DNA of 64,000 nt from NCBI GenBank assembly GCA_038237235.1, contig JBBRYW010000002.1:12998-76997 (forward strand), given 5' to 3'. A program made the position numbers and the translations under genes. The stretch's first letter is position 1. Every line of letters begins with the position of its first letter. This document shows positions 41,726 through 54,566 of this stretch, in pieces. This stretch comes from Gaiellales bacterium. GTDB lineage: Bacteria; Actinomycetota; Thermoleophilia; Gaiellales; Gaiellaceae. A model generated the notes under the pieces. That model was given only the letters and a program-made list of their open reading frames with translations, did not search any database and had not been told where the DNA came from.

Positions 41726-41816
41726 GAGTTGTCGCCTGTTTAGCTAACAGGCAACACTCTTTCGCACCTTGGTGCATATGCGTCTCGGCGCTGGTCGGTG
41801 CCGGATTGGAGCCAGC

Positions 41817-44681
41817 GTGCTGAGCGTGGCGAAGCTGACGGTGGGCCAGGAGACCTACTACGAGCAGCAGGTCGCGGCTGGGCTCGACGACTACTACGCT
41901 GGCCGCGGCGAGTCGCCGGGGATCTGGTCCGGCCGCGGGGCCGAGCTACTCGGCCTTGGGGGCGTGGTCGAGGAGGGCGAGCTCGGCACGCTTCTTCGCG
42001 GCGTCGACCCAGCGAGCGCGGCGCGGCTGCGGACTCCGGTGCGCGAGCGGACGATCACCGTTCGCGTGCTCGACACTGAGAGCGGCGAGTGGCGGGAGGA
42101 GACGAAGCGGCTCGCGCCGGTCTCGGGTTTCGACCTCGTCTTCTCGTGCCCGAAGAGCGTCAGCATCCTGCACGCGCTCACCGACGACGAGCGTGTGCGC
42201 CAGGAGATCAGCGAGGCGCACGAGGCGTCGTGGCAGGCGGCGCTCGGCTATCTCGAGCGCGAGGCCTGCGTCGTGCGTCGCGACCGCGGCGGCGCGATCC
42301 GGGAGCACGGCGGCGGCTTCGTCGCGGCCGCCTTCCGGCATCGCACGAGTCGGGCACAGGATCCCCACCTACACACGCACGCGATCGTGGCGAACGTGGC
42401 CCGCTCCGCCGACGGCGAGTGGCGCGCGCTCGACGGCGAGGCGATCCTGCGGACGTACCGGCTCACCGCCGGCTACCTCTACGAGGCGAACCTCCGCCAC
42501 GAGCTCGCGCAGCGGCTCGGTGTCGGCTGGACGCAGCCGGTCAAGGGCATGGCCGAGCTCGAGGGCGTCCCCGAGGAGGCGATGCGCGCCTTCTCGACTC
42601 GGCGGCAATCGCTGCTCGAGCACATGGAAGCGCGCGGGTCGGAAGGCTTCGCGGCTAGCCGAGTCGCCGCGCTCGCAACGCGGGAGGCGAAGGAGCAGGT
42701 TGATCTTCCTCGGCTGCGGGAGGAGTGGACGGCGCGAGCCGCCGAGCACGGGCTCGGCCGTCGCGAGTTGCGCGCACTCGCGGGTCCACCCCGCCCCGAT
42801 CGAGCGATCGACCTCGGCGACGCCGCGGAGCAACTACTCGGCCGCGACGGCCTCACAGCGAAGCAGACGACGTTCACGATGCCAGAGCTCGTCTACGCCG
42901 TCGCCGGCGCGGTCCGCCACGGCGCCAGCACCGAAGATGTGCTCGGGACGGCGGAGAAGCTGTCGGCGTTCCCGAGTGTCGAGCTGGTCGAGCCCGAGTG
43001 TGCGCCAGGACGGCCCGCTCGATTCACGACGCGCGAGTTGCTCGAGGTCGAACGGGAGGCTCTCGAGATCGCACTGGCCGGTCGCAACGTTGATGCACCT
43101 CGCGTAGCTCCGGGCGGCGTCCCGATCGAACAACGCGCCGAACTCACGGACGAGCAGCGGATCCTCGTGCGCGAGGCGTGTGTGAGCCGCGACCGTATCG
43201 TCTGCGCCGTCGGTGTCGCGGGCTCAGGAAAGACAACCGCCCTTCGCGTCCTCGGCGCGGCCTACCGCCAGGCAGGCATCCCAGTCCTCGGCGCCGCGCC
43301 CAGTGGCCGGGCCGCCGACGAGCTCGCAACCGCGACGGGCATCCGCAGCACGACCATGCACCGGCTCCTCGTGGACGCGCAGCATCAAGGCGGTCTGCCG
43401 CGCGGCTGCGTCGTGGTCGTCGACGAGGCGGGCATGGCCGAGACGCGCGTTCTCACGCCGCTTCTCCGGCTGATCGACGATGTCGGAGGGAAGGCGATCC
43501 TGGTCGGCGACCCCGGCCAACTTCCGGCCGTCGGCGCCGGCGGACTCTTCCCCGCCCTCTGTGACCGCCTCGGCGTCATCGGCCTGTCGGAGAATCACCG
43601 CCAGCACGACCCGGTGGAGCGCGACGCGCTCGCGCAGCTCCGCTCCGGCGACCCCAAGCCGTACCTCGCCCATGCTGTGTCGAGCGGACGGCTGCACCTC
43701 GAGGACGACGCGACCTCGGCCAAGAGCCGACTCCTCCAAGACTGGTGGCGGGCGGCGGAGCGCGACCTTGACGGAACGGTCATGCTCGCCTACCGGCGCG
43801 ACGATGTCCGCGAGCTCAACGACGCCGCCCGCGACCTGATGCTGAGCGCCGGTCGGCTCGGACCCGAGGCGCTCCAGTTCGACCGCCGCGAGTTCCGTGC
43901 CGGTGATCGCGTCATCTGCCGGCAAAACGATGCGCGCTGCGACGTCCGGAACGGCACGCGCGGGACGGTTGTCGATCTGGATGTCGCGGGCGAGACCCTC
44001 CTGCTTCGGACGGACGCCGGCGCCCTAAGCCACATCAGTTCCCTGTACGCAGCCGAGCACCTTAACCACGCCTACGCCCTCACGGGCCATGCTTCCCAGG
44101 GCGCGACCGTCGACCGCGCCTTCGTGCTCCTCAGCGACGAGGGCGTGCTCCGCGAGTGGGGCTACGTCGCCTGTTCCCGCGCACGTGAGGAGACGCGCCT
44201 CTACATCGCCAGCGACGCGCACGAACGAGAGACGCACGGACGCGACCTCGAGCCGACGCACGCTTCGGTACGGATCGCCCGTAGGCTGACCGCACCGTCG
44301 TGCGAGCAGCTCGCGCTCGAAAGCGCAGCGGTTCCTTCGCCTAGCGATGCCAGCCTCCTTGCCCTCGCTCACCGCCGGGAACAGCTGGAACGCCCGCGTT
44401 GCCGAGCCGAAGAACGCCTCACCGAGGCCGAGACGAAGCTCGAGCAGCTCGGCTGGCGTGGCCGCCGGAGACATGGCGCCGAACTTCGAGCCGAGATCGG
44501 CTTTCAACGCGCGGCGTTCAGCATCGCGGCCAAGCAACTCGCGGAGATCCCGTCCGTCCCTCTACCGCCGACCTCGCGACGAGCCGATCAGGCCCCCGAC
44601 CGGGCCACGTCTCGTGAGCATGCATTCGTGAACCATCACACGCCGGCGCCGGAACCGCGCGGACTCGACCTAGGGCTCTGA
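41817..44681 (+). CDS. MobF/TrwC-type conjugative relaxase fused to RecD-like helicase
   Basis: The GTG at 41817 follows GGAG. Motifs are LSVAKLTVGQETYYEQQVAAGLDDYY, FDLVFSCPKSVS, HRTSRAQDPHLHTHAIVAN (3-His), Walker A GVAGSGKTT and VVVDEAGM. Confidence 0.9.
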   Translation: MLSVAKLTVGQETYYEQQVAAGLDDYYAGRGESPGIWSGRGAELLGLGGVVEEGELGTLLRGVDPASAARLRTPVRERTITVRVLDTESGEWREETKRLAPVSGFDLVFSCPKSVSILHALTDDERVRQEISEAHEASWQAALGYLEREACVVRRDRGGAIREHGGGFVAAAFRHRTSRAQDPHLHTHAIVANVARSADGEWRALDGEAILRTYRLTAGYLYEANLRHELAQRLGVGWTQPVKGMAELEGVPEEAMRAFSTRRQSLLEHMEARGSEGFAASRVAALATREAKEQVDLPRLREEWTARAAEHGLGRRELRALAGPPRPDRAIDLGDAAEQLLGRDGLTAKQTTFTMPELVYAVAGAVRHGASTEDVLGTAEKLSAFPSVELVEPECAPGRPARFTTRELLEVEREALEIALAGRNVDAPRVAPGGVPIEQRAELTDEQRILVREACVSRDRIVCAVGVAGSGKTTALRVLGAAYRQAGIPVLGAAPSGRAADELATATGIRSTTMHRLLVDAQHQGGLPRGCVVVVDEAGMAETRVLTPLLRLIDDVGGKAILVGDPGQLPAVGAGGLFPALCDRLGVIGLSENHRQHDPVERDALAQLRSGDPKPYLAHAVSSGRLHLEDDATSAKSRLLQDWWRAAERDLDGTVMLAYRRDDVRELNDAARDLMLSAGRLGPEALQFDRREFRAGDRVICRQNDARCDVRNGTRGTVVDLDVAGETLLLRTDAGALSHISSLYAAEHLNHAYALTGHASQGATVDRAFVLLSDEGVLREWGYVACSRAREETRLYIASDAHERETHGRDLEPTHASVRIARRLTAPSCEQLALESAAVPSPSDASLLALAHRREQLERPRCRAEERLTEAETKLEQLGWRGRRRHGAELRAEIGFQRAAFSIAAKQLAEIPSVPLPPTSRRADQAPDRATSREHAFVNHHTPAPEPRGLDLGL

Positions 44682-44730: not shown

Positions 44731-45474
44731 TCAATCGTGGAGGATCGATAAGCAGAACTCCCCGCGCTCGAGATTGAGGTCGCGTGTTGGCAGCCGCTGC
44801 TCCGCGCGCCAATCATCGAATGCACGGGCTGGGTAGAGCGCTGCGAGCAAGAGCTGGAGCTGGGCGAGCCCGGTCGTGTCACCGAAGACGGCGACGTAGG
44901 TCTCCTCGAGCGTCTCGACGACGTGGACGACGAGCCCGACGGGCTGCGTCGTGCCGATCACACGCCGCTCCTCGACGCCGGGCTGGGCACGGGCGGCAGC
45001 GAGAAGATCCTGAGTCTCGACGCTGACGACAGCGGCGAACCGTTCGGCCCGGTCGTCGCGGAGCGCCTCATAGTCGGCGGCCGTAGGACGCACGAGCCCC
45101 GCCCCGATCAGCTGCGGAAATCGTTCGAAGGCGTCGGAGGGCTCCCCGGAGCGGTGGCGCGCGTAGGCACAGAGCCAAACGACGTTCTCCTCGGCGTCGA
45201 ACCAGGTCGCGCCGCGGTGATGGTGGCCGTAGCGCAGAACCCATAGCGTGTCGTCGCCGGCGGCGGGGCCGACCGTGTCCGTCCCGTGAACGACGGTGTG
45301 GCGCTGGTTGCGGAGCGCCCTGACCATCTCGTGGCGCAGGAGCGTGTCGAAGTCCGTATCGCGGCCGAACCCTAGATCGTCGACGACGCACCGCTCGGTG
45401 ACGCGCAACTCGTGCCCGGCCCGGCAGACGAACGATCGCAGATGGCATTCCCCGATGTTGCGGTTGCCGGGCAA
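44731..45474 (-). CDS. Hypothetical protein, second gene of the unit divergent from the Ubl operon
   Basis: 247-aa ORF with normal composition (WVLRYGHHHRGATWFDAEENVVWLCAYARHRSGEPSDAFERF...). It lies 25 nt downstream of the wHTH gene. I recognise no motif. Confidence 0.55.
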   Translation of the reverse strand: MPGNRNIGECHLRSFVCRAGHELRVTERCVVDDLGFGRDTDFDTLLRHEMVRALRNQRHTVVHGTDTVGPAAGDDTLWVLRYGHHHRGATWFDAEENVVWLCAYARHRSGEPSDAFERFPQLIGAGLVRPTAADYEALRDDRAERFAAVVSVETQDLLAAARAQPGVEERRVIGTTQPVGLVVHVVETLEETYVAVFGDTTGLAQLQLLLAALYPARAFDDWRAEQRLPTRDLNLERGEFCLSILHD

Positions 45475-45499
45475 TCGGACCCGACTGTAGCGGCGGGTG

Positions 45500-46369
45500 C
45501 TACTTACTCAGGCGGGCGGCGCGGGCCTCGGCCTGCTTCTTCGAGTACCGCTTCGAGAACCGCGCCAACTCGTCCTTGTCGCCGCTCTTGATCGCAGCGC
45601 GCAGGGCGTCGTGGTCGGCGGCGAGCTGATCCTTGTGGGTGTCGAGGAACTCGTGCCACGCCGAGGCGAGAAGCGCTCCCGGCTCGCTTCCCTGCATGCC
45701 GGCGAGTGCCTTGACGTCGCTCCGCAGAGGCTGCGGCAGCGAGAAGTCGCCGCTCGTCGGGTCAGCGGGATCCTCTTTCGGCGTCCCGGCCCGCGGGTCG
45801 ACGAAAAGGAGTCCCTCGCGGCGCGGTCGCTCGACGCGGTGGACGAAGCCCTTCTGGAAGACGTTGACGAGGCGGTTTGTCGCGGCGCTCGGCTCGAGCC
45901 CGGTCGCCTGCGCAAAGTTCGCGACGGTCACGCGGCCGCCGAGGCGCCGAAGAACGTCGAGCGTCTCATGCTCTGTCGGCGTCAGCGAGCCGAGTGGCTC
46001 CGCCTCTGACAACCGTTCGACGGAGGGAGCGACGAAGAGGGCGAGGTCGTAGGTCTGGGCGAGCGAGCGAAGTACCTCGCGCATCCCCTCGTCCTCGGTG
46101 CAGAGAACGACCGCCAGCGGCCCGAGCGTGCGGCCGCGCGCCGCTTGGCCGAGCGGAACGACGAGCTCTAGAAGGACTGACGCCGAGGGGAACCTTCCCT
46201 CGAGGTTCAAGGCCAGCACCGTTGGCTCTCTGACGCCACTTGGCAACAGCCACTTGCGGAAGCGCGCCATGAGTCCCCGATCGAGGAGAGGCCCGGCCGT
46301 GCCGTCCGGTGTGAACGGAGCACGCAGCTCGAGGAGTGGAAGGCGATGAGAGTGGAGCAGGGAGTTCAT
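45500..46369 (-). CDS. Winged-helix DNA-binding protein with unknown N-terminal domain and helical C-terminus
   Basis: ATG at 46369 (MNSLLHSHRLP...). The central MarR-like wHTH is LTPTEHETLDVLRRLGGRVTVANFAQATGLEPSAATNRLVNVFQKGFVHRVERP. It is divergent from the Ubl gene. Confidence 0.65.
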   Translation of the reverse strand: MNSLLHSHRLPLLELRAPFTPDGTAGPLLDRGLMARFRKWLLPSGVREPTVLALNLEGRFPSASVLLELVVPLGQAARGRTLGPLAVVLCTEDEGMREVLRSLAQTYDLALFVAPSVERLSEAEPLGSLTPTEHETLDVLRRLGGRVTVANFAQATGLEPSAATNRLVNVFQKGFVHRVERPRREGLLFVDPRAGTPKEDPADPTSGDFSLPQPLRSDVKALAGMQGSEPGALLASAWHEFLDTHKDQLAADHDALRAAIKSGDKDELARFSKRYSKKQAEARAARLSK

Positions 46370-46379
46370 AGAGAGGCCA

Positions 46380-46489
46380 TATCGGCAGAAGCGGAGCCTG
46401 ACACAAATAGCAGCCGAGTGTGTGGTGCCATCGGTTACTTCTGCTATATTCACTGAGTTCAGTGAAGTTACTGTGGAACTCTGCCGATA
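46380..46489. promoter_or_regulatory. Divergent promoter/operator region with nested symmetry
   Basis: TATCGGCAGA (46380-46389) and its exact complement TCTGCCGATA (46480-46489) lie 100 bp apart. The perfect palindrome TTCACTGA-GT-TCAGTGAA is at 46449-46466, flanked by GTTACT direct repeats. The region is AT-richer than its surroundings. Confidence 0.45.
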
Positions 46490-46501
46490 AGGAGGAAGGA
46501 C

Positions 46502-46762
46502 ATGCCCCCGAAGCAGATCGAGATCGCAATCGTCGTCAACGGCCAGCCGACGGTCGTCCACGCCAACCCCAACTCGCCCCTCAAGACGGTGATTCCGAAG
46601 GCGCTCGAGGCGACCGGGAATACCGGTCAACCGCCTGAGAACTGGGAGCTCCGCGACGCAAATGGCACGCTCCTGGACACTTCGAAGAAGATCGGGAGCT
46701 TCAACTTCCCGGCCGGCATGCGTCTGCTCCTGAACCTGAAGGCCGGGGTGGGCGGCGCGTGA
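46502..46762 (+). CDS. Ubiquitin-like beta-grasp protein (multiubiquitin-type), C-terminus ...GVGGA
   Basis: 86 aa. AAGGAGGAAGGA lies before the ATG. The sequence is IEIAIVVNGQPTVVHANPNSPLKTVI...WELRDANGTLLD...GMRLLLNLKAGVGGA. The stop overlaps the next start. Confidence 0.75.
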   Translation: MPPKQIEIAIVVNGQPTVVHANPNSPLKTVIPKALEATGNTGQPPENWELRDANGTLLDTSKKIGSFNFPAGMRLLLNLKAGVGGA

Positions 46763-47379
46763 GCACGTCCCCGCAGCTCGCCGACCCCCAGGTTTCGCGC
46801 ACGAAGTTCGCCCGCGAAGTCGAGGAGTTCCGGCAGCTCGCCGGCGACTACTCTCGCCGCGGATGGCTACTGGTCGAAGCGGAGTTCCCGCGCATCTTCG
46901 TCATCATGGCCGCGCCGCAGCTCAAACCGTCGCCGATCGTCACCGGCCTTCTGCTGGACTACACCGACTATGACCTAAGGCCGCCCTCAGTCCAGCTCGC
47001 CGATCCGTTCAGCCGCGCGCCCTACAAAGCCGGCCAGCTCCCGACGAACCTGCTGCGCCAGGTCGAGACCGACGCGGTGCCGATCGGGCTGGCGCTTCCG
47101 CCCGGCTTCGCCGCGCCGCGGGTGATCCAGCAGCAGCCGCTCATGCAGAGCTATGGGCCTGAAGAGCTTCCGTTCCTGTGTATTGCCGGCGTCCGCGAGT
47201 ATCACGAACACCCCGCCCACTCCGGCGACCGCTGGGAGCTCCATCGCCGAGATGGCGCCGGCAGGCTCGTGCGCATCCTCGAAATCATCGACACCTACGG
47301 CGTCCGTCCGCTGAATGGCTACGGCGTCACCCTTGTCCCACAGGTGTCAGGACTGACACAAGGCGAGGTACCGGCGTGA
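46759..47379 (+). CDS. Prokaryotic E2-like (UBC-fold) conjugating enzyme
   Basis: 206 aa. The only cysteine lies in PFLCIAGVREYHEHPAHSGDRWELH. The gene is coupled by GTGA overlaps on both sides. Confidence 0.75.
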   Translation: MSTSPQLADPQVSRTKFAREVEEFRQLAGDYSRRGWLLVEAEFPRIFVIMAAPQLKPSPIVTGLLLDYTDYDLRPPSVQLADPFSRAPYKAGQLPTNLLRQVETDAVPIGLALPPGFAAPRVIQQQPLMQSYGPEELPFLCIAGVREYHEHPAHSGDRWELHRRDGAGRLVRILEIIDTYGVRPLNGYGVTLVPQVSGLTQGEVPA

Positions 47380-47849
47380 CGCTGGAGGGGGTCGAGAAGT
47401 TCTCCGTCCCCGAAGACGTCGTCGCGAACACCGAGCGCAGCCTGCGCCGAGCCGGGCGCGATGGCTACGAGCTATTCGTCCTCTGGAGCGGCATGCACAA
47501 GAACTCCTCGTTCCGGGTCAGCACGGCTCACGTGCCCGAACAGAGCTCCTACCGCTTGAAGGGCGGGCTCTGCGTCCGTGTCGAGGGCGAGGCGCTCCAC
47601 AAGCTGAACGTCTGGCTGTTCGAGAATGAGGAGACGCTCGGCGTGCAGGTACACGCCCACCCGACCGACGCCTACCACTCCAACACCGACGATACCTACC
47701 CGATCGTCACCATCCTCGGCGGGCTCTCTCTCGTCGTCCCCGACTTCTGCCACGCCGGGCTCTTCGCCCGCAGCGCCGCCTACCGGCTCTCGCGCGACGG
47801 CTGGCACGAGGACTCAAGACCCGTGACCCAGCTGATCGAGGTCGTCTGA
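47376..47849 (+). CDS. JAB/MPN (JAMM) metalloprotease
   Basis: 157 aa with YELFVLWSG (Glu) and VQVHAHPTDAYHSNTD (HxH...S..D). The GTG at 47376 overlaps the E2 stop. Confidence 0.8.
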   Translation: MTLEGVEKFSVPEDVVANTERSLRRAGRDGYELFVLWSGMHKNSSFRVSTAHVPEQSSYRLKGGLCVRVEGEALHKLNVWLFENEETLGVQVHAHPTDAYHSNTDDTYPIVTILGGLSLVVPDFCHAGLFARSAAYRLSRDGWHEDSRPVTQLIEVV

Positions 47850-49339
47850 TGCTCGCCGACTACTACCTGCGCAACGCCGCCGCCGCCGCCCAAGTCCTCT
47901 CGGGCTTCGACGAGGAGCTGTTTCGCTCGCGGCTCGAATCGACGCCGGTCGGGATCTCGCTCGGCGCCGACGTGGAATCAGGCGAGGGACGCGCGGTCGC
48001 CGACCTCCTCGTCCGCCTCAGCGCTCGGCTCTACCCCACGCTGGCCCTCATCGGTGAGCCAGCCACGGTAGCCCCGCTCGCCGAACTCGCTAAGGCGATC
48101 AACCCAATGATCGACCTCGTCGACGAGGCGACCATTGGCGTCGCCGTCAGCGACGGCAACGCCTTTCAAACGACGATCTACGCTGGCTCAGATGGCTGGG
48201 ACGGGTTCGTGAGCGCGACAGAGCCGCAGAGTCTCGGCGCGAGCGACAACCCGTTCGGCGCCGGGGTCGCGGCCTGCCTCGCCGCCGCCGGCCTCTTCCG
48301 CGCTGTCTTCCTGCCCGACTGGAAGGAGCGCGTCGACGAGCGCGCGCGCTTCTCGGCCCTCGCAGGCGACGCTGTCGAAGCCGCGACCAACTCTCCCTCC
48401 ACACCTTGGCGCCTTGAAGAAGATGCCGTATTGGTCGGCGCCGGCGCTGTCGGCCAAGGCGCCCTCTGGGCTCTCTCCCGGGCGCCCTTGAGCGGGCGGC
48501 TGCATGTCGTCGACATGGAGGTCCTCGAGCTCAGCAACCTGCAGCGCTACGTCCTTACCGAGCGCACCGACGAGATTCGCGACAAGGTCGAGATCGCGGC
48601 CACGCTCGACTCCACCCTCGAACTCGTCCCGCACGCGGAAGACCTGGCCGCTTTCCTTGCGAAAAACGGCTACCGCTGGAGCGCGATGCTCCTCGGGCTC
48701 GACAGCGCCCGCGACCGTGTCAGCGCGCAAGCGTCTCTGCCGCGCTTCGTCGCCAACGCCTGGACGCAACCTGGCGATCTCGGCGTCGCCGCTCACTCGC
48801 GCTTCGGCGGCGAGGGGGCCTGCGTCGCCTGCTTCTATCTTCCGGAGGCGCGCCTCAAGAACGAGGACGAGCTCGTCGCCGAGACGCTCGGCGTGTCGCA
48901 GTTCCTCATGCAAGTGCGTACGTTACTGGCAACCGGTGAGCCAGTCGACCGCGGATTCTTGGAGGCGGTTGCCCAGGCAGTCAGCCAACCTTTGGAGGCG
49001 CTCTTGCCCTTCGAGGGCAGGACAGTCCGCGAGCTCTACGTCGAGGGCTTTTGCGGCGGCGCAGTGATCCCGATCGGCAGGGCCGGCAAGCTCCACCAGG
49101 TTGCGCAGGAAGTGCACGTCCCGCTCGCGCACCAGTCTGCCCTCGCCGGCGTCCTCCTCGCCGCCGCGCTCGTCCGCCACGCTATCGCGGGCGAGGAGGA
49201 GCTGACGCACGTCACGCGGCTCGACGTCTTAAAGCCGGTCGGTCAGTTCCTGCGACAACCGCTACGCGCGCGGCGCGATGGACGCTGCATTTGCGACGAC
49301 GCTGACTTCGTCACGGCTTACGCGGCGAAGTACGACTGA
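47849..49339 (+). CDS. E1-like ThiF/MoeB-family adenylating enzyme
   Basis: 496 aa with VLVGAGAVGQGALWAL, HVVDMEVLELSNLQRY and paired Cys motifs GACVACFY and DGRCICDD. The ATG overlaps the JAB stop (TGATG). Confidence 0.85.
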   Translation: MLADYYLRNAAAAAQVLSGFDEELFRSRLESTPVGISLGADVESGEGRAVADLLVRLSARLYPTLALIGEPATVAPLAELAKAINPMIDLVDEATIGVAVSDGNAFQTTIYAGSDGWDGFVSATEPQSLGASDNPFGAGVAACLAAAGLFRAVFLPDWKERVDERARFSALAGDAVEAATNSPSTPWRLEEDAVLVGAGAVGQGALWALSRAPLSGRLHVVDMEVLELSNLQRYVLTERTDEIRDKVEIAATLDSTLELVPHAEDLAAFLAKNGYRWSAMLLGLDSARDRVSAQASLPRFVANAWTQPGDLGVAAHSRFGGEGACVACFYLPEARLKNEDELVAETLGVSQFLMQVRTLLATGEPVDRGFLEAVAQAVSQPLEALLPFEGRTVRELYVEGFCGGAVIPIGRAGKLHQVAQEVHVPLAHQSALAGVLLAAALVRHAIAGEEELTHVTRLDVLKPVGQFLRQPLRARRDGRCICDDADFVTAYAAKYD

Positions 49340-49388: not shown

Positions 49389-49712
49389 ATGCAGATCTCG
49401 AAGCGGACCAGGTTCAAGTTCGGCGAGTTCGCCACCGCGTACGCCGTCTTACGCCAGATCGATCTCGTCTTCATGAGCGAGGATTTCGAACACGTCGTGG
49501 AGTGGCTAGACCTCGATTCCGGCATGCGCCGAAGCCTCGTATCTGGCTACCACGCCGCGATCGACTTCTCTGATCCGGTGCAGCTCGGACGGCTAATCCG
49601 CGTCTACGCGGATGCCATCACCTCCTGGGGCCGTGACGAGCACGGCGACCTGGTTCCAACCATGATCCGACCTGAGATCGGGCTGCCCGGGGGATTGTTC
49701 CGTTCGACTTAG
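49389..49712 (+). CDS. Hypothetical 107-aa protein downstream of the E1 gene
   Basis: The ORF starts 50 nt after the E1 stop in a lower-GC stretch. Its composition is protein-like (FEHVVEWLDLDSGMRRSLVSGYHAAIDFSDPVQLGRLIRVYADAITSW). I recognise no motif. Confidence 0.4.
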   Translation: MQISKRTRFKFGEFATAYAVLRQIDLVFMSEDFEHVVEWLDLDSGMRRSLVSGYHAAIDFSDPVQLGRLIRVYADAITSWGRDEHGDLVPTMIRPEIGLPGGLFRST

Positions 49713-49841: not shown

Positions 49842-50627
49842 CTATGCCTCGAACCGGCTGATCCGCTCGAGCAGCGCCTCGGGGTCGACGCCCGTCGGCA
49901 CCTCGACCTCGTCGACGATCCGGCCGTCGAGGATCCGAACGACCCGGTCGCAGCGGCTCGCGATCACCGGGTCGTGGGTGGCGACGACGACGGTCATCCC
50001 GTGCCGCTCGCGCAGGTCGAGCAGAAGCTGCATCAGCTCGAGCGCCGTCTGGGAGTCGACGTTGCCGGTCGGCTCGTCGGCGAGGAGCAGGATCGGGTCG
50101 TTGATCAGCGCGCGCGCGATCGCAACCCGCTGCTGCTGCCCGCCCGACATGCGAGAGGGAAGGGATGCCTCGCGCCCTTCGAGGCCGACCGCGGCGAGCA
50201 GCTCGCTCGCTCGCGCGAACTTGTCGAACTCGGTCTTGTAGGGCAGCAAGGGCGCCGCCACGTTGTCGAGCGCGGTCAGCACGGGCAGCAGGTGGAAGCG
50301 CTGAAAGACGAAGCCGATCCGGCGCCGGTAGGCGACCTGGCGCTGGCCGCTGAGCGCGGTGACCTCCTCGCCGGCGACCGTGATCCGTCCCTCGTCGACG
50401 ACGTCCATTGCGCCGACCACGTGCAAGAGCGTCGACTTCCCCGAGCCCGAAGGGCCGGTGATCGCAACCACCTTGCCGGGCTCGACCACGAGGCTGACGC
50501 CGTCGAGCGCCGTGATCGTCGCCTCGCCGAGCCGGTAGCGCTTACCGACGTCCTCCAGCTCCACCCGCGCGCCGGGGGCTTGTTGGCCGTTCTTGCTGCT
50601 GCGAAGATCCATCTGGCCGGCTAGCAT
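49842..50627 (-). CDS. ABC transporter ATP-binding protein (MacB/LolD/FtsE-like)
   Basis: Walker A GPSGSGKST, signature MSGGQQQRVAIARAL and Walker B ILLADEPTGNVD. Confidence 0.9.
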   Translation of the reverse strand: MLAGQMDLRSSKNGQQAPGARVELEDVGKRYRLGEATITALDGVSLVVEPGKVVAITGPSGSGKSTLLHVVGAMDVVDEGRITVAGEEVTALSGQRQVAYRRRIGFVFQRFHLLPVLTALDNVAAPLLPYKTEFDKFARASELLAAVGLEGREASLPSRMSGGQQQRVAIARALINDPILLLADEPTGNVDSQTALELMQLLLDLRERHGMTVVVATHDPVIASRCDRVVRILDGRIVDEVEVPTGVDPEALLERISRFEA

Positions 50628-50668
50628 ACATTGCGGCCATGCAGAAGCTAACTCGCTAAGGAAATCGC

Positions 50669-51274
50669 GTGCCGATCCAACATGCAGTGCTCGCCCTGCT
50701 CGCCACGGGCCCCGCCCACGGCTACGGCCTGAAGGCGAGCTTCGAGGACTCGATCGGCCCGCAGTGGGGCGAGCTCAACATCGGCCACCTCTACCAGGTG
50801 CTCGAGCGCCTGATCCGCGACGAGCTCGTGACGAAGCGCGTCGTCGCGCAGTCGGATCGGCCGGACAAGAACGTCTACCGCCTGACCGAGGCCGGCCGCG
50901 CCGAGCTCGAGCGCTGGCTGGAGACGCCGTTCGTGCGCCAGGGCGGCTACCGAGACGACTTCTTCCTCAAGTTGTTCGCGGCCGCCCGACTCGGCGAGGA
51001 GGAGCTCAGGGGCGTAATCCGCGTCCAGCGCCAGGCTTACATGGGGGAGCTGTCGGCGCTCGCCGAGCTCCGGCTCGAGCACCGCGAGGAGCCGCTCGTC
51101 CGCCTCCTGATCGAGGCGGCGGCCAAGCACGCTGAGGCGAACCTGCAGGTCGTGGAGCTGGCGGAGGTGGCGGCGGCCGAGCTGGTGGCCTCGCAGAGGG
51201 CGCTTCGGGTCGAGGAAGGCTCCGAAGACGAGCTCAGGCCCGAGGCAGCCGGCGAGCGCCACCAGCGAACCTAG
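50669..51274 (+). CDS. PadR-family transcriptional regulator
   Basis: IQHAVLALLATGPAHGYGLKASFEDSIGPQWGELNIGHLYQVLERLIRDELV. It is divergent from the ABC ATPase gene. Confidence 0.85.
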   Translation: MPIQHAVLALLATGPAHGYGLKASFEDSIGPQWGELNIGHLYQVLERLIRDELVTKRVVAQSDRPDKNVYRLTEAGRAELERWLETPFVRQGGYRDDFFLKLFAAARLGEEELRGVIRVQRQAYMGELSALAELRLEHREEPLVRLLIEAAAKHAEANLQVVELAEVAAAELVASQRALRVEEGSEDELRPEAAGERHQRT

Positions 51275-51313
51275 ATTGCCTCTTACATCGTCGCAAGGTA
51301 TGCTTCACTAATC

Positions 51314-51826
51314 ATGGGCCGCGCTCGCACAGTGACCGCGATCATCGTTGCCAGCTGCCTGGTCGTTGCGGCCGACGCAACCGCGACAGTGCGGCTGAAC
51401 AAGGGGATCGGGCGAGTCAACCTCGGCATGACCTCGAGTCAACTGATTCGTACGTTCGGCAAGCCGCTGGGCATTCGCACTGGCGGCCTCTCGCCGGTCG
51501 CCAGACGCTTCTCCACCGATCGGACCTACGTCGAGTACGAGTACTTCTCGAAGAACGGCTACACGGTCGGGCTTGCGAGGCGGAGCGGCAAGATGCGCGT
51601 GGTCTTGGTCGCCGTCTACATCAGCGGGCAGCGCACGCCTCAGGGGATCGGCGTGGGCTCCTTGGCGGGCGACGTCCGCGTCAAGTATCCGAGCGTGCAC
51701 TGCGGACTCCTCGACGAGGTGAGCCAGTCTTGCGTCCTGCCGAGCCGCGCCAAGGCGGAGACGGTCTTCGTCGTGGACACGCTCAGGTCGCGCGTGAGCG
51801 CGGTCGCGGTGCGCGCGCGCACGTGA
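51314..51826 (+). CDS. Secreted hypothetical protein
   Basis: 170 aa with a signal-like N-terminus (TAIIVASCLVVAADATA). It lies between padR and the permease gene. Confidence 0.5.
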   Translation: MGRARTVTAIIVASCLVVAADATATVRLNKGIGRVNLGMTSSQLIRTFGKPLGIRTGGLSPVARRFSTDRTYVEYEYFSKNGYTVGLARRSGKMRVVLVAVYISGQRTPQGIGVGSLAGDVRVKYPSVHCGLLDEVSQSCVLPSRAKAETVFVVDTLRSRVSAVAVRART

Positions 51827-51842
51827 GCTGTGCCTCGCGGGC

Positions 51843-54566
51843 GTGCTGAGATTCCTCGCCGCGAACCTCCGCCACCGCCCAAGCCGTGCGGTGGCTTTCG
51901 GCGCAGCCATCCTCGTCGCCGCAGTCTCTTTCGTGCTCCTCACCTCGGCGGCCAAGACGTCCGACCTCCGCGTGCGCGGCTCTGTCACGCAGAACTTCCG
52001 AAACGCCTATGACATCCTCGTACGCCCGCGCGGCTCCTTCACCAAGATCGAGCGCGAGAGCGGGCTTGTTCAGGCCAACTACCTGAGCGGCATCTTCGGT
52101 GGGATCACGCTGAGGCAGTACGGCGAGGTCAAGCAGATCCGCGGCGTTCAGGTAGCGGCGCCAATCGCCAACGTCGGCTACATCTTCCCCTTCGTCAACA
52201 AAGCGGTTCTGATCGACGATCTCGTCTCTGGCGCTCCCGCGCAGATGTTCCGACTGAAGCAGTCGTACGTCGCTCAGCGCGGCCTGTCTCGCTACCCAGC
52301 GAACGACTGGTACGTGTACTACACGACGCGCGACCGCCTGCTCTACGACCAGGGCGGCCTGCACCAGGTCCTGCCGGATGGACGCATGGCCGACGTCTGC
52401 AAGAGCTTCGCGAACGAGATTCCCTCTGAAGGCGGCCCATTCCGCCGCCCCTCCTACATGAGCTGCTACTCCCGGCGCTCACCGGGGGAGGACTCCTCAG
52501 CATACAACAGCGATTTCCCAGTCGGTCGGCCCAGCGCGGTGATTGGATTCTACTTTCCGGTACTGCTCGCGGCGATCGACCCGGTTCAGGAGGCTCGATT
52601 GACGAATCTCGACCGCACGATTACCGCCGGGCGGTTCCTGAAGCCTCACGAGCGACCTCGGGTGGGACGCTTCGGGGGTAATTTCGTACCCATCATTGCG
52701 AGCGCGCGACCCTACCTCGACGAGCACCTTTCGATCGAGGTGTCGCGATTGCCAGTCCTCCCTGCAACACCGTTCGCCCTTCGGGTCGGCGGGCCGGACG
52801 CGTACCGCTTCGTCACCCACCTGCCGGCGGGCAAGCTCCTGGCCACGAAGAGAGTCTCGCTCGTTCGCGCCTACGAGCGACTCCTGAGAAGCCGCTTATT
52901 CTCCGATATCTATTGGACACCTTCGAACGTGCGCTACCGCCGAGCTACTGGCGGTCGGCTCTCGGCTATCACGACAGCCAATCCAGAGTCAATCTGGAAA
53001 TCACATATCTACACAGGAGGCTACTTCGCCCCGCCGCACGACAACGCGGACGCACAGTTTCGACGTCTTTACGCCTACAACGGGCGGAATACGTTCGACA
53101 ACCGCGGCGTCTACCGAACCCCGGCTTTTCGGCTTCGAGGCCGCTACGACCCCGCCAAGCTCCCCGGCTTCAGCCCGCTCTCGCGCCTGCCGATGGAGAC
53201 TTACTACCCGCCGCTTGTCGAGGGCGGCGATGCCCGCAGCAGGCGCCTGCTGAAGGGAAAGCCGCTCCTGCCGACGCAGAACGTCGGCGACTACATCCAG
53301 CAGCCGCCGCTGTTTCTGACGACGCTCGAGGGAATGCGGCCGTTCCTCAACCCGGAGTTCTTCCCGGGCGCGAGCGCGAGGGCGCCGATCTCGGTGATCC
53401 GGATCCGCGTTGCTAACGTCAAAGGCCCCGACCCCGAGAGCCGCGCGCGCATCAAGGCGGTCGCGCTCGAGATCCGCGACCGAACCGGCCTCGACGTCGA
53501 CATCACGGCCGGCTCCTCGCCGCGCGAGCTCTTGATCGACCTGCCGGCGGGCAAGTTCGGCCGCCCGGAGCTGCTCTTGAAGGAGGGCTGGGTGAAGAAG
53601 GGCGTCTCGGTCACTTTCTTGAAAGCGCTCGACCGTAAGCGCCTTTTGCTCTTGGCGCTGATCCCGCTCACCTGCGGCTTCTTCCTCATCAACGGTGCCT
53701 TCGCCGCCGCACGGGCGAGGAGACGGGAGCTGGGGACGCTGCTCTGCCTCGGCTGGCCGCGGCGGGCGATCTTCACCGCTCTACTCGGCGAGCTGGCGCT
53801 CGTCGGGCTCGTCGCTGGGTTGCTCGGAACGGCGGTCGCGGCAGCGATCGTTGAGGGCTTCTCGCTCGATGTCTCGCTCGCTCGCACCTTGCTCGTCGTC
53901 CCGCTCGCGCTCGTCCTGCCCATGCTGGCGGGGCTGGTGCCGGCGCTTCGCGCCTCACGCGAGGCGCCGCTCGCCGCCGTGGCGCCGCCGGTCGTCGCCT
54001 CGACGAGCGTCCGCTCAGTGCGAAATCTGCACGGGCTCGTCCTCGCAAACCTCGCCCGCGTGCCGCAGCGGACGCTGGTCGGCGTTCTCGGCATGGTCGT
54101 CGGCGTCGCGGCGCTGACGCTGATCGTCGGCATCGACCACGCCTTCCAGGGCACGCTCGTCGGCACCCTGCTCGGCGACGCGATCCTGTTTCGGATCTCG
54201 GGGCTCGACTTCGTCGCCCTGGGAGTGACGATCGCGCTTGCCGCCTGCTCGCTGGCCGACGTTCTCTTCCTCAACCTGAGCGAGCGCTCAGCCGAGCTCG
54301 TCACCCTGCGTACGCTCGGCTGGCGCCAGCGCCACCTGGCGCGGGTAGTCGCGCTCGAGGCGGTTGGGATGGGCCTCATCGGCGCGCTCGGCGGGGCGCT
54401 GCTGGGCCTCGCGCTCGGGGCGGCGCTTGGGATCTCGCTCCTGCCCTTGCTGGCCGCAGCCGGGCTCGCGGGGGCGGGAGGCCTCCTCGTCAGCCTCGTC
54501 GTCAGCCTGCTGCCGCTGACCCGGGTGGCGGGACTAACGGCACCGGTGGTGCTTGCAGAGGAATGA
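51843..54566 (+). CDS. Large FtsX/MacB-type ABC transporter permease
   Basis: 907 aa with an N-terminal TM helix, a long extracytoplasmic domain and two C-terminal FtsX-like four-helix bundles. Confidence 0.8.
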   Translation: MLRFLAANLRHRPSRAVAFGAAILVAAVSFVLLTSAAKTSDLRVRGSVTQNFRNAYDILVRPRGSFTKIERESGLVQANYLSGIFGGITLRQYGEVKQIRGVQVAAPIANVGYIFPFVNKAVLIDDLVSGAPAQMFRLKQSYVAQRGLSRYPANDWYVYYTTRDRLLYDQGGLHQVLPDGRMADVCKSFANEIPSEGGPFRRPSYMSCYSRRSPGEDSSAYNSDFPVGRPSAVIGFYFPVLLAAIDPVQEARLTNLDRTITAGRFLKPHERPRVGRFGGNFVPIIASARPYLDEHLSIEVSRLPVLPATPFALRVGGPDAYRFVTHLPAGKLLATKRVSLVRAYERLLRSRLFSDIYWTPSNVRYRRATGGRLSAITTANPESIWKSHIYTGGYFAPPHDNADAQFRRLYAYNGRNTFDNRGVYRTPAFRLRGRYDPAKLPGFSPLSRLPMETYYPPLVEGGDARSRRLLKGKPLLPTQNVGDYIQQPPLFLTTLEGMRPFLNPEFFPGASARAPISVIRIRVANVKGPDPESRARIKAVALEIRDRTGLDVDITAGSSPRELLIDLPAGKFGRPELLLKEGWVKKGVSVTFLKALDRKRLLLLALIPLTCGFFLINGAFAAARARRRELGTLLCLGWPRRAIFTALLGELALVGLVAGLLGTAVAAAIVEGFSLDVSLARTLLVVPLALVLPMLAGLVPALRASREAPLAAVAPPVVASTSVRSVRNLHGLVLANLARVPQRTLVGVLGMVVGVAALTLIVGIDHAFQGTLVGTLLGDAILFRISGLDFVALGVTIALAACSLADVLFLNLSERSAELVTLRTLGWRQRHLARVVALEAVGMGLIGALGGALLGLALGAALGISLLPLLAAAGLAGAGGLLVSLVVSLLPLTRVAGLTAPVVLAEE

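What the first reader, a model, noticed from the sequence alone, without database searches (positions are those of the whole stretch)
44731..46369. Divergent two-gene unit (wHTH protein plus 247-aa unknown) linked to the Ubl operon
Two genes are read away from the Ubl promoter region, 25 nt apart on the minus strand. The canonical four-gene operon does not account for either of them.

- **First gene (45500-46369):** an unrecognised N-terminal domain of about 110 aa, a clear MarR-like winged helix (LTPTEHETLDVLRRLGGRVTVANFAQATGLEPSAATNRLVNVFQKGFVHRVERP) and a charged helical tail.
- **Second gene (44731-45474):** no motif I can name, apart from a His-rich patch (YGHHHRGATWFD) and VWLCAYARHRSGEPSDAFE.

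The position suggests a sensor/repressor plus an accessory or effector protein dedicated to the conjugation system. This would parallel the dedicated regulators found next to other defence operons.
Basis: inference. Interest (0 to 1): 0.65.

Follow-up and report, generated by a model that had tools for sequence, protein, structure and literature searches.

The report
Bil repressor fused to toxin-antitoxin-like pair
Next to a bacterial ubiquitin-like anti-phage operon sit a repressor gene fused to an antitoxin-like tail and that tail's uncharacterised 247-aa partner gene. This arrangement recurs in about 20 soil-bacterial loci and has not been described as a regulator type for such operons.

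Summary
Two minus-strand genes (45500-46369 and 44731-45474, 25 nt apart) diverge from a Type II Bil operon (Ubl, CEHH-type E2, JAB, E1).

The six-gene layout recurs in about 20 distinct loci from Actinomycetota and Acidobacteriota, with unrelated flanking genes.

The pair is a composite of two modules.
- **Regulator part of gene 1 (aa 1-190).** It has an alpha/beta N-domain plus a MarR-type winged helix. It aligns collinearly with the published STAS-wHTH repressor CapS (hhalign 64-66%, E about 6e-5). It also occurs on its own, about 200 aa long, divergent from 16 related Bil operons. No CapK kinase is nearby.
- **Tail of gene 1 (aa 205-289) plus gene 2.** The tail is a ribbon-helix-helix (RHH) domain plus helices. 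It occurs elsewhere as a separate 85-90-aa protein immediately upstream of p247 homologues, in a typical type II toxin-antitoxin layout.
- **p247.** It matches no family in any library searched. Its AlphaFold model most resembles RelE/YoeB/HigB toxins, but weakly.

A covarying palindrome (46449-46466) lies 35 nt upstream of the Ubl start codon.

Best reading: a Bil repressor fused to an antitoxin, so that operon de-repression and p247 release are coupled. Toxicity, DNA binding and the trigger are untested.

The parts
45500..46369 (-). Gene 1, 289 aa: a fused regulator made of a CapS-like N-domain, a MarR-type winged helix, an RHH domain and a helical tail.
   Evidence: ORF. 84 homologue clusters. 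AlphaFold2 model with pLDDT 89. Always divergent from a Type II Bil operon in the loci examined.
45995..46369 (-). Gene 1, aa 1-125: alpha/beta N-domain, probably STAS-like as in CapS.
   Evidence: Predicted topology is beta-beta-alpha-beta-alpha-beta-alpha. hhalign of family A2 against the CapS profile A7 gives 63.7% probability, E 6.7e-5, 127 columns. Against a CapS member from L091 it gives 66%, E 5.6e-5, 178 columns. There is no Pfam hit. hhalign against SpoIIAA/RsbV is not significant.
45800..45985 (-). Gene 1, aa 129-190: MarR-type winged helix-turn-helix.
   Evidence: Pfam MarR_2 E 1.5e-4 and MarR E 3.2e-4, both below threshold. Foldseek top hits are MftR 8ylg, YusO and MarR, probability 0.99-1.0. 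N165 and R166 in the recognition helix are invariant.
45503..45757 (-). Gene 1, aa 205-289: ribbon-helix-helix domain plus three C-terminal helices. This is the antitoxin-like module that travels with p247.
   Evidence: It aligns to the stand-alone 85-90-aa proteins encoded just upstream of p247 homologues. Profile A8 hits CopG-family RHH chains 6iya (E 0.004) and 7etr (E 0.012). Pfam RHH_1 scores E 0.045 on the short form.
44731..45474 (-). Gene 2, p247, 247 aa: uncharacterised two-domain protein and candidate toxin or effector.
   Evidence: ORF. 155 clusters at 90% identity. 590 clusters at 50% identity with E<=1e-3. No family hit. AlphaFold2 model with pLDDT 91.
45100..45417 (-). p247, aa about 20-125: candidate RelE/ParE (BECR)-like domain, with topology beta-alpha-alpha-beta-beta-beta-alpha.
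   Evidence: 16 of the 30 best Foldseek PDB hits are RelE, YoeB, HigB2, RelE1/2 or PfiT toxins. The best is 2khe, E 0.03, probability 0.95, target-normalised TM 0.5-0.58. Which residues of p247 these hits align to is not reported; assigning them to aa 20-125 is my inference from the secondary-structure order. There is no sequence-level support. R24, R28, R58, R87, W91, W100, H107 and D114 are invariant in Bil-linked and stand-alone members alike.
44734..45087 (-). p247, aa 130-247: a long helix followed by an alpha/beta domain of unknown function.
   Evidence: Secondary structure. Only weak fold hits: the ExsC chaperone (probability 0.2-0.35) and the DAHP synthase ferredoxin-like domain (E 0.04). 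P130, D134 and E239 are invariant even at 25-36% identity.
46449..46466 (.). Perfect palindrome TTCACTGA-AC-TCAGTGAA: candidate operator at the bil promoter.
   Evidence: 0.01 matches expected by chance in the window. It lies 35 nt upstream of the Ubl ATG. It is conserved in position, and both arms change together in L007 (TTCACGG-GACT-CCGTGAA). The same half-site occurs in L065, whose regulator has no RHH domain.
46370..46501 (.). 132-nt divergent intergenic region. It holds the palindrome, a -10-like GTTACT (46467-46472, plus strand, inferred) and the Ubl Shine-Dalgarno sequence AAGGAGG (46489-46495).
   Evidence: Sequence. The -10 is inferred by alignment to TATACT in L065 and to TAGACT/TACATT in class B loci. 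The sigma-70 consensus scan found no site here.
46502..49339 (+). Type II Bil operon. Ubl 46502-46762, E2/CEHH 46759-47379, JAB 47376-47849, E1 47849-49339. Adjacent genes overlap at their start and stop codons.
   Evidence: Pfam DUF2604, Metal_CEHH, Prok-E2_C and ThiF. PADLOC BilB, BilC and BilD. The CEHH/6C operon equals Bil according to PMC10557695.

Best explanation
**What gene 1 encodes.** It encodes the repressor of the divergent bilABCD promoter. The repressor part (aa 1-190) has the CapS architecture: a STAS-like dimerising N-domain plus a MarR-type winged helix. It most likely binds the TTCAC...GTGAA palindrome beside the bil -10 region.

**The fusion.** In this lineage the repressor has been fused to the RHH antitoxin-like protein of a separate two-gene module. 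Gene 2 (p247) is that module's second protein. p247 has two domains, and one of them is RelE/ParE-like in fold.

**Proposed working model (inferred).**
- In resting cells the fused protein represses both bilABCD and its own operon. Through its RHH and helical tail it also holds p247 in an inactive complex.
- When the fused protein is lost or displaced, two things happen together: the Ubl-conjugation operon is de-repressed, and p247 is freed as a second, growth-arresting effector. Loss could come from proteolysis, or from failure to replace a labile protein after phage shuts off host transcription.

**Shown.**
- Gene anatomy.
- Conservation of the six-gene layout.
- The modular origin of the fusion.
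- Presence, position and covariation of the palindrome.

**Inferred.**
- DNA binding and repression.
- p247 binding to the tail.
- p247 toxicity.
- The nature of the trigger.
For: **Linkage.**
- The six-gene arrangement occurs in about 20 distinct loci at 36-84% p247 identity, with unrelated flanks such as resolvase, integrase, type I R-M, Mrr, RelA_SpoT and IS21.

**Regulator slot.**
- In related Bil operons the upstream slot holds a solo N-domain plus wHTH regulator (16 of 45 assessable loci).
- In others the same divergent slot holds XRE-HTH plus partner (L086 and L105). In L091 a GHKL kinase plus CapS sits upstream in the codirectional published arrangement.
- This matches published CapH/CapP and CapKS placement (PMC10557695; PMC13373217).

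**CapS likeness.**
- hhalign gives 63.7% probability, E 6.7e-5 against the CapS profile.
- It gives 66%, E 5.6e-5 against the L091 CapS member.
- Both alignments run collinearly over both domains.
- The best fold hit, 8ylg, is the same MarR-type structure used to model CapS on DNA.

**Operator.**
- The palindrome at 46449-46466 lies 35 nt from the Ubl ATG.
- L007 shows compensating changes in both arms.
- In class B loci the palindrome ATTCCCA-N10-TGGGAAT overlaps a clear -35/-10 pair.

**Toxin-antitoxin likeness.**
- All 10 non-fusion genome loci that hold a near-full-length p247 relative (8 stand-alone, 2 next to a different Bil-like operon) have an 85-90-aa RHH gene 30-40 nt upstream, with a GTAACA-N-TGTTAC palindrome in its promoter region.
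- The RHH profile hits CopG-family chains.
- L109 places the module next to a MazE/PIN pair and an integrase.
- p247's best fold matches are RelE-superfamily toxins.
- Core residues are equally conserved in Bil-linked and stand-alone p247.

**Precedent.** A Cap-type regulator has already been shown to double as an antitoxin: VapKSC (PMC13373217).
Against: - **RelE fold is weakly supported.** It rests on a weak Foldseek signal (best E 0.03) on a predicted model. No sequence or profile method sees it.
- **Catalytic-like residues vary.** H107 and R108 are not conserved in the most distant family members.
- **No evidence of toxicity.**
- **CapS homology is only moderately probable.** hhalign gives 64-66%. 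CapS's defining phospho-serine is not conserved here, and no kinase is present.
- **STAS is not detected directly**.
- **Promoter is unmapped.** The consensus scan found no sigma-70 site in the intergenic region. No RNA data exist for this organism, so promoter and operator positions relative to the transcription start are inferred.
- **Two DNA-binding domains.** The protein has both a wHTH and an RHH domain, and I cannot say which reads which site.
- **Independent function remains possible.** Stand-alone modules and solo regulators show that the two halves can work separately, so functional coupling in the fusion is plausible but not shown.
Confidence: 0.5

Rival explanations
1. p247 is not a toxin. 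It is a signal-sensing partner, playing the role that CapK or CapP plays for its repressor. On infection or stress it binds or modifies the RHH tail and releases the repressor from DNA. The stand-alone RHH plus p247 modules would then be small autoregulated stress switches.
For: - The slot is otherwise filled by sensor plus repressor pairs: CapH/CapP-like and CapK/CapS.
- p247 is large (247 aa), has two domains, and carries many invariant charged residues in both.
- The solo regulators in class B show that repression needs no partner, so the added partner could be an added input.
- p247 also accompanies a second, different Bil-like operon in L019/L021.
Against: - Stand-alone RHH plus p247 pairs have no obvious output gene. 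That suits a self-contained toxin-antitoxin pair better than a sensor.
- There is no kinase, peptidase or nucleotide-binding signature in p247.
- Its best fold matches are toxins.
Confidence: 0.22
2. The RHH tail plus p247 is an ordinary addiction module that stabilises the mobile island carrying Bil. The fusion to the regulator is an accident of gene fusion without regulatory consequence. Bil is controlled by the wHTH part alone.
For: - The locus sits next to a TrwC relaxase.
- In other genomes it sits beside integrases, resolvases and IS elements.
- Stand-alone modules lie in toxin-antitoxin or integrase neighbourhoods.
- The wHTH-only regulator of L065 uses the same TTCAC half-site.
Against: - The fusion is maintained across Actinomycetota and Acidobacteriota down to 33-40% regulator identity. 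That argues for selection on the fused form.
- An independent association of unfused RHH plus p247 with another Bil-type operon (L019/L021) suggests a functional affinity for Bil.
Confidence: 0.18
3. One or both proteins take part in the conjugation chemistry, as a substrate, an adaptor (E3-like) or a target-recognition factor for the Ubl, rather than acting as regulators.
For: Tight linkage to the operon. Type II Bil operons have no identified E3 (my own knowledge of Chambers et al. 2024 and Hör et al. 2024).
Against: - Most Type II Bil operons work as four genes. 83% of them encode only four proteins (PMC10557695).
- Gene 1 has two DNA-binding domains and sits at an operator-bearing promoter.
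- Half of p247 homologues have no Bil operon nearby.
Confidence: 0.05

Closest known systems
CapK + CapS (Chambers et al., EMBO J 2026, PMC13373217)
   Same: - CapS is a roughly 184-aa STAS plus MarR-type wHTH repressor that binds palindromes in its own promoter and in the immune operon's promoter.
- Gene 1 aa 1-190 has the same two-domain order and aligns collinearly with it.
- CapKS is found upstream of Bub, CBASS and five Bil operons.
- I found one such CapK-CapS-Bil locus, L091.
   Different: - There is no CapK kinase here or in the solo-regulator loci.
- The orientation is divergent rather than codirectional.
- CapS's invariant T51/D52/S54 phosphosite motif is not conserved.
- Gene 1 carries an extra RHH plus helical tail and is followed by p247.
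- Sequence relationship is remote (20-29% identity in the hhalign alignments).
CapH + CapP (Lau et al. 2022; 15% of CEHH/6C Bil operons, PMC10557695)
   Same: A two-gene unit, upstream of and divergent from bilABCD, sharing its promoter region. The first gene encodes a DNA-binding repressor.
   Different: - CapH is an XRE-family HTH and CapP an M78 metallopeptidase.
- Here the DNA binder is wHTH plus RHH.
- p247 has no HEXXH motif or peptidase signature.
- CapH/CapP-like pairs occupy the same slot in the more distant Bil loci L086 and L105.
VapKSC (same paper)
   Same: It shows that a Cap-type STAS protein can also act as an antitoxin, using a C-terminal helix to inhibit a toxin. This is the same logic proposed here for the RHH tail and p247.
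   Different: The VapKSC toxin is a PIN/VapC nuclease, its release is kinase-driven, and VapS has no DNA-binding domain.
RHH-antitoxin / RelE-ParE (BECR) type II toxin-antitoxin modules, e.g. RelBE and ParDE; multidomain BECR toxins (Gerdes 2025, PMC11980606)
   Same: - The RHH gene comes first and the partner follows 25-40 nt downstream.
- A palindrome lies in the promoter region.
- The C-terminal helices of the RHH protein could wrap around the partner.
- One domain of p247 is RelE-like in fold.
- The best RHH matches are CopG-family chains 6iya and 7etr. From memory, these are the CopA_SO antitoxin of a ParE toxin.
   Different: - p247 is about 2.5 times the size of RelE or ParE and has an extra C-terminal alpha/beta domain.
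- It matches none of the 13 Pfam BECR families.
- Toxicity is untested.
- The antitoxin is fused to a second, unrelated repressor.
MarR family
   Same: The winged-helix domain, by fold and by sub-threshold Pfam hits.
   Different: It lacks the MarR dimerisation helices flanking the wHTH. An alpha/beta N-domain takes their place.

Membership tests
CapS (STAS-wHTH immune-operon repressor) | N-terminal STAS domain followed by a MarR/ArsR-type wHTH, about 180-200 aa. | tested here: inconclusive
   hhalign of A2 against the 54-sequence CapS profile gives 63.7% probability, E 6.7e-5, aa 49-186 against CapS 38-169. Against the L091 CapS member it gives 66%, E 5.6e-5. STAS is not detected by Pfam or against SpoIIAA/RsbV (0.85% probability). 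CapS structures (9Z71-73) were absent from the fold-search results.
CapS (STAS-wHTH immune-operon repressor) | Invariant phospho-acceptor Ser (S54, within the TDxSFPRES motif). | tested here: not met
   T51, D52 and S54 are invariant in CapS. The aligned stretch in the gene 1 family (RFPxxxxL) is variable. Ser or Thr at position 61 occurs in about 16 of 20 sequences, with G, L and D also found.
CapK+CapS system | An adjacent HTH-STAS-GHKL kinase (CapK) immediately upstream, codirectional with the operon. | tested here: not met
   There is no HATPase_c domain in p247 or its neighbours. The orientation is divergent. As a positive control, L091 does show a kinase plus CapS.
CapH+CapP | XRE-family HTH repressor plus M78 (HEXXH) peptidase. 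| tested here: not met
   Neither protein hits HTH_3 or Peptidase_M78. There is no HEXXH motif in p247 (sequence).
CapH+CapP | Placed upstream of the immune operon, divergent from it, and sharing its promoter. | tested here: met
   A 132-nt shared intergenic region. The same slot holds an XRE-HTH pair in L086 and L105.
Type II toxin-antitoxin, RHH antitoxin class | Ribbon-helix-helix DNA-binding domain in the upstream gene product. | tested here: met
   Profile A8 hits CopG-family RHH chains 6iya (E 0.004), 7etr (E 0.012) and 9kkd (E 0.19). A2 aa 207-269 hits the same chains. RHH_1 scores E 0.045. The predicted structure is strand-helix-helix. The support is modest but consistent.
Type II toxin-antitoxin, RHH antitoxin class | Bicistronic layout with the antitoxin first, and a palindromic operator in its own promoter. 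| tested here: met
   All 10 short-form loci examined (8 stand-alone, 2 beside a different Bil-like operon) have the RHH gene 30-40 nt upstream of p247, with a GTAACA-N-TGTTAC-type palindrome upstream.
RelE/ParE (BECR-fold) toxins | BECR fold: an alpha-helical pair packed on a 3-4-stranded antiparallel sheet. | tested here: inconclusive
   16 of the top 30 Foldseek PDB hits are RelE, YoeB, HigB or PfiT. The best is E 0.03, probability 0.95, target-normalised TM 0.5-0.58. The hits come from a predicted model. hhalign against RelE finds nothing. None of 82 family members hits a Pfam BECR family.
RelE/ParE (BECR-fold) toxins | Growth inhibition that the cognate antitoxin neutralises. | not testable with these tools
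   This needs expression experiments.
Type II Bil (CEHH/6C) operon (context) | Ubl, CEHH-type E2, JAB deubiquitinase and E1, in that order. | tested here: met
   The gene order matches that described in PMC10557695.

The most novel reading that the evidence does not exclude
p247 founds a previously unrecognised, widespread family of two-domain BECR-fold effectors (about 590 clusters at 50% identity). Its RHH antitoxin has been fused to an immune-operon repressor. This creates a kinase-free switch in which loss of a single labile protein both turns on a ubiquitin-like anti-phage conjugation system and releases a toxin. It would be a new way of wiring transcriptional control to abortive infection.
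Probability: 0.3. Interest if true: 0.72.

Novelty: new variant of a known kind. Interest (0 to 1): 0.55.

Why it matters
How anti-phage operons are kept silent and switched on is an active question. [quoted passage not shown]

This locus suggests two more solutions for Bil operons.
- A CapS-like repressor that works without its kinase.
- The same repressor fused to an antitoxin whose partner is an uncharacterised protein family.

If the coupling is real, it gives a directly testable example of one polypeptide integrating transcriptional control of an immune operon with control of a toxin. It would also assign a first function to a family of several hundred unnamed protein clusters found mostly in soil and sediment metagenomes and genomes assembled from them.

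If it is not real, the finding still gives a correct domain-level annotation of the pair. It also adds two regulator types to the catalogue for Type II Bil systems.

Tried and rejected
- **Family libraries for p247.** Pfam, NCBIfam, PADLOC and PHROGs gave nothing significant. The only hit was the DAHP synthase ferredoxin-like domain at E 0.04.
- **PDB sequence search with the p247 profile.** Nothing.
- **hhalign of p247 against E. coli RelE.** No alignment of the relevant region. The RelE claim therefore rests on fold alone.
- **BFVD fold search for p247.** Only uncharacterised phage proteins, so uninformative.
- **STAS test with SpoIIAA/RsbV.** hhalign found the register I expected, but at 0.85% probability, so I do not count it as evidence.
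- **L7Ae/YbxF hits to the N-domain.** E 0.17-0.3; treated as noise.
- **Csa3/CARF and CasR hits (PADLOC, NCBIfam).** They cover only the wHTH part, so they give no evidence for a CARF domain.
- **Metallopeptidase idea for the His-rich patch of p247.** Rejected. There is no HEXXH motif, and only H107 is invariant.
- **Sigma-70 consensus scan.** No promoter found in the intergenic region.
- **RNA-seq search.** Only DNA metagenomes hold this sequence, so transcription starts could not be mapped.
- **GTAAC repeats flanking the window palindrome.** I considered them as an RHH site. They are not conserved in the closest relative, L006, so I dropped the idea.
Full report
**1. What is there**

The window is 64-73% G+C. 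The closest relatives of this locus come from Gaiellaceae and Solirubrobacteraceae genomes assembled from metagenomes.

On the plus strand, 46502-49339 encodes four genes that overlap at their start and stop codons:
- a DUF2604 ubiquitin-like protein;
- a Metal_CEHH (Y4jH-like) E2;
- a JAB protein;
- an E1 with Prok-E2_C and ThiF domains.

PADLOC scores three of them as BilB, BilC and BilD. This is the 'CEHH/6C', or Type II Bil, operon of Chambers et al. (PMC10557695).

On the minus strand, reading away from a 132-nt intergenic region, lie gene 1 (45500-46369, 289 aa) and gene 2 (44731-45474, 247 aa, called p247 here). They are 25 nt apart.

**2. The linkage is real**

Both proteins have many homologues (155 and 84 clusters at 90% identity), often on the same contigs.

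Look-ups of seven p247 homologues gave five six-gene loci and two stand-alone modules.

| Source | Loci | Breakdown |
|---|---|---|
| Species-representative genomes, p247 relatives | 20 | 8 have the full gene 1 homologue plus a Type II Bil operon. 2 (one element, L019/L021) have a different Bil-like operon. 8 have no E1/E2/JAB nearby. 2 are fragments. |
| Metagenome contigs, relatives of the window's E2 | 80, of which 45 have enough upstream DNA to judge | 8 have the long regulator plus p247. 16 have a shorter regulator only. 2 are cut by the contig end. 19 have no homologue of either gene. |

Across these sets there are about 20 distinct six-gene loci, spanning Actinomycetota and Acidobacteriota. 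Their flanking genes all differ (resolvase, integrase, type I R-M, Mrr, RelA_SpoT, IS21). This is the signature of a mobile unit inherited as a block.

**3. Gene 1 is a fusion of two modules**

*The short regulators.* They are about 190-210 aa and match only aa 10-194 of gene 1, that is, the N-domain plus the winged helix. They end there, and the genes downstream of them are unrelated (a NACHT protein, an integrase).

*The non-fusion partners of p247.* In the loci without the fused regulator, the gene just upstream of p247 encodes an 85-90-aa protein. This protein aligns to aa 205-289 of gene 1. It has the strand-helix-helix pattern of a ribbon-helix-helix (RHH) domain. Its profile hits CopG-family RHH structures (6iya at E 0.004, 7etr at E 0.012).

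*Conclusion.* Gene 1 equals a Bil regulator plus an RHH protein. The 'charged helical tail' belongs functionally with gene 2.

**4. The regulator part resembles CapS**

- The AlphaFold2 model (pLDDT 89) shows an alpha/beta N-domain followed by a winged helix.
- The winged helix's best structural matches are MarR-family proteins, led by MftR (8ylg).
- A 2026 paper (PMC13373217) describes CapS. It is a STAS plus wHTH repressor of immune operons, controlled by the kinase CapK, and was found upstream of five Bil operons among others.
- I took the CapS sequences from that paper's appendix and collected 965 homologues. I then compared profiles.
- The gene 1 family aligns to CapS collinearly over both domains: 63.7% probability, E 6.7e-5.
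- L091 is a metagenomic locus with a GHKL kinase, then a 209-aa protein, then a Bil operon. That 209-aa protein is a clear CapS member (97%, E 5e-11). It aligns to the gene 1 family at 66%, E 5.6e-5, over 178 columns.

I read this as probable remote homology, not proven. Two defining CapKS features are absent here. There is no kinase, and the phospho-serine motif is not conserved.

**5. Operators**

- The window's intergenic region holds a perfect palindrome, TTCACTGA-AC-TCAGTGAA, at 46449-46466. It lies 35 nt from the Ubl ATG.
- Relatives keep a palindrome at the same place while the sequence drifts. L007 has TTCACGG-GACT-CCGTGAA, with both arms changed in a compensating way. Others have ACACAC-N8-GTGTGT, ATATTACACT-N15-AGTGTAATAT, or CTTGACACAGT-N16-ACTGTGTCAAG.
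- In short-regulator loci, the palindrome ATTCCCA-N10-TGGGAAT overlaps a recognisable -35/-10 pair of the bil promoter.
- L065, whose regulator has no RHH domain, uses CTTCACT-N6-AGTGAAG. This suggests the winged helix reads the TTCAC half-site.
- The short-form RHH plus p247 modules carry a different palindrome, GTAACA-N-TGTTAC, upstream of the RHH gene.
- Repression of the bil promoter by gene 1 is therefore well motivated, but it remains an inference.

**6. p247**

- The family is large: 590 clusters at 50% identity with E<=1e-3. Members are almost always 240-260 aa. Every library leaves it unannotated.
- The model is confident (pLDDT 91). It shows an N-terminal beta-alpha-alpha-beta-beta-beta-alpha unit, a long helix, and a C-terminal alpha/beta domain.
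- In the PDB fold search, 16 of the 30 best hits are RelE, YoeB, HigB2, RelE1/2 or PfiT toxins, each matched over about 90-100 columns (TM 0.5-0.58 normalised to the toxin; best E 0.03, probability 0.95).
- That concentration on one small superfamily is unlikely to be chance. However, each individual score is weak, and no sequence method confirms the similarity.
- The output does not say which part of p247 is aligned. Placing the match on aa 20-125 is my inference from the secondary-structure order.
- The motif LR.G..HRGATW.D....VVWLCAY..HRSG resembles, by eye, the RelE strand region.
- The core residues R24, R28, C29, D33, R58, R87, W91, W100, H107, D114, P130, D134 and E239 are equally invariant in Bil-linked and stand-alone members. 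The Bil-linked copies are therefore not decayed relics.
- In the most distant relatives H107 and R108 vary.

**7. Model and rivals**

*Best reading (about 0.5).* The locus encodes a repressor-antitoxin fusion.
- The CapS-like part silences bilABCD and its own operon at the palindrome.
- The RHH and helical tail hold p247.
- Loss of the fused protein both de-represses Bil and frees p247.
- VapKSC, in the same 2026 paper, is a precedent for a Cap-type protein acting as an antitoxin.

*Rivals.*
- p247 is a non-toxic sensor that replaces CapK or CapP (0.22).
- The toxin-antitoxin module merely stabilises the island (0.18). A TrwC relaxase lies next door.
- The proteins take part in the conjugation chemistry (0.05).

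*Confidence in the separate claims.* That gene 1 is the Bil repressor: about 0.8. That the tail plus p247 is a toxin-antitoxin-like pair: about 0.55. That the two functions are coupled: about 0.4.

**8. Novelty**

The searchable literature reports CapH/CapP on 15% of these operons and CapKS on five Bil operons. I found no mention of a kinase-less CapS-like regulator, of an RHH fusion, or of the p247 family. Gerdes' survey of multidomain RelE/ParE toxins starts from Pfam families, and p247 matches none of them, so the survey would have missed it.

The finding is a new variant of a known kind (immune-operon controllers and type II toxin-antitoxin modules). It also involves an uncharacterised protein family.

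Noticed in passing
window 41769-44681 (+): A 970-aa TrwC relaxase fused to an AAA_30/UvrD-like helicase (MobF/TraA type), convergent with p247. The Bil locus probably sits on or beside a conjugative or mobilisable element.
   Followed up: partly
L091 3412-4299 (+), 4360-4989 (+), then the Bil operon from about 5076: A GHKL (HATPase_c) kinase followed by a clear CapS member (hhalign 97% against the CapS profile), directly upstream of and codirectional with a Type II Bil-like operon. This is the published CapK-CapS-Bil arrangement, found in a metagenome.
   Followed up: yes
L086 5071-5574 (-) and 4043-5074 (-); L105 5148-5612 (-) and 4099-5148 (-): An XRE-family HTH protein plus a roughly 345-aa partner with no Pfam hit, divergent from more distant Type II Bil operons. 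They are CapH/CapP-like by position, but the partner was not identified as an M78 peptidase.
   Followed up: partly
L019 and L021 (e.g. L021 6840-9524 minus strand, 9698-10732 plus strand): A different Bil-like operon with an unfused 85-aa RHH gene plus p247 divergent from it. The operon encodes a 118-aa Ubl ending in GGGV, a 158-aa protein with no Pfam hit in the E2 position, a Prok-JAB protein and a BilD-like E1. L019 is labelled Burkholderia but is about 98% identical to the Solirubrobacteraceae contig L021, so it may be mis-binned.
   Followed up: partly
L109 3187-4946: A stand-alone RHH (86 aa) plus p247 (246 aa) pair, immediately followed by a MazE-like/PIN pair and lying near an integrase fragment. 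This looks like a small toxin-antitoxin cluster.
   Followed up: no
L026 2379-5473: A stand-alone RHH plus p247 module about 1.6 kb downstream of smpB. Regions next to smpB and the tmRNA gene are common integration sites. I did not search for the tmRNA gene.
   Followed up: no
window 46377-46389 and 46480-46492: A 13-nt inverted repeat (CCATATCGGCAGA / TCTGCCGATAAGG, 92% complementary). One arm lies just before each of the two divergent start codons. Only part of it is conserved in the nearest relative, and its meaning is unknown.
   Followed up: partly
L065 4857-5678 (-) and L041 3082-3906 (-): Some solo regulators carry C-terminal extensions of about 60-80 aa that are not RHH domains and have no p247 downstream. 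The regulator's C-terminus appears to be a hot spot for added modules.
   Followed up: no
window 49842-54566: An ABC ATPase (minus strand), a PadR-family regulator and a 907-aa FtsX-type permease lie just downstream of the Bil E1 gene. A 107-aa ORF with no family hit (49389-49712) lies in between. None of these is conserved next to Bil in other loci.
   Followed up: partly
L024 and L025, around 10001-10474: p247 relatives that match only from about aa 76-80 onward, with no RHH gene upstream. They may be fragments or a variant with a different N-terminus.
   Followed up: no
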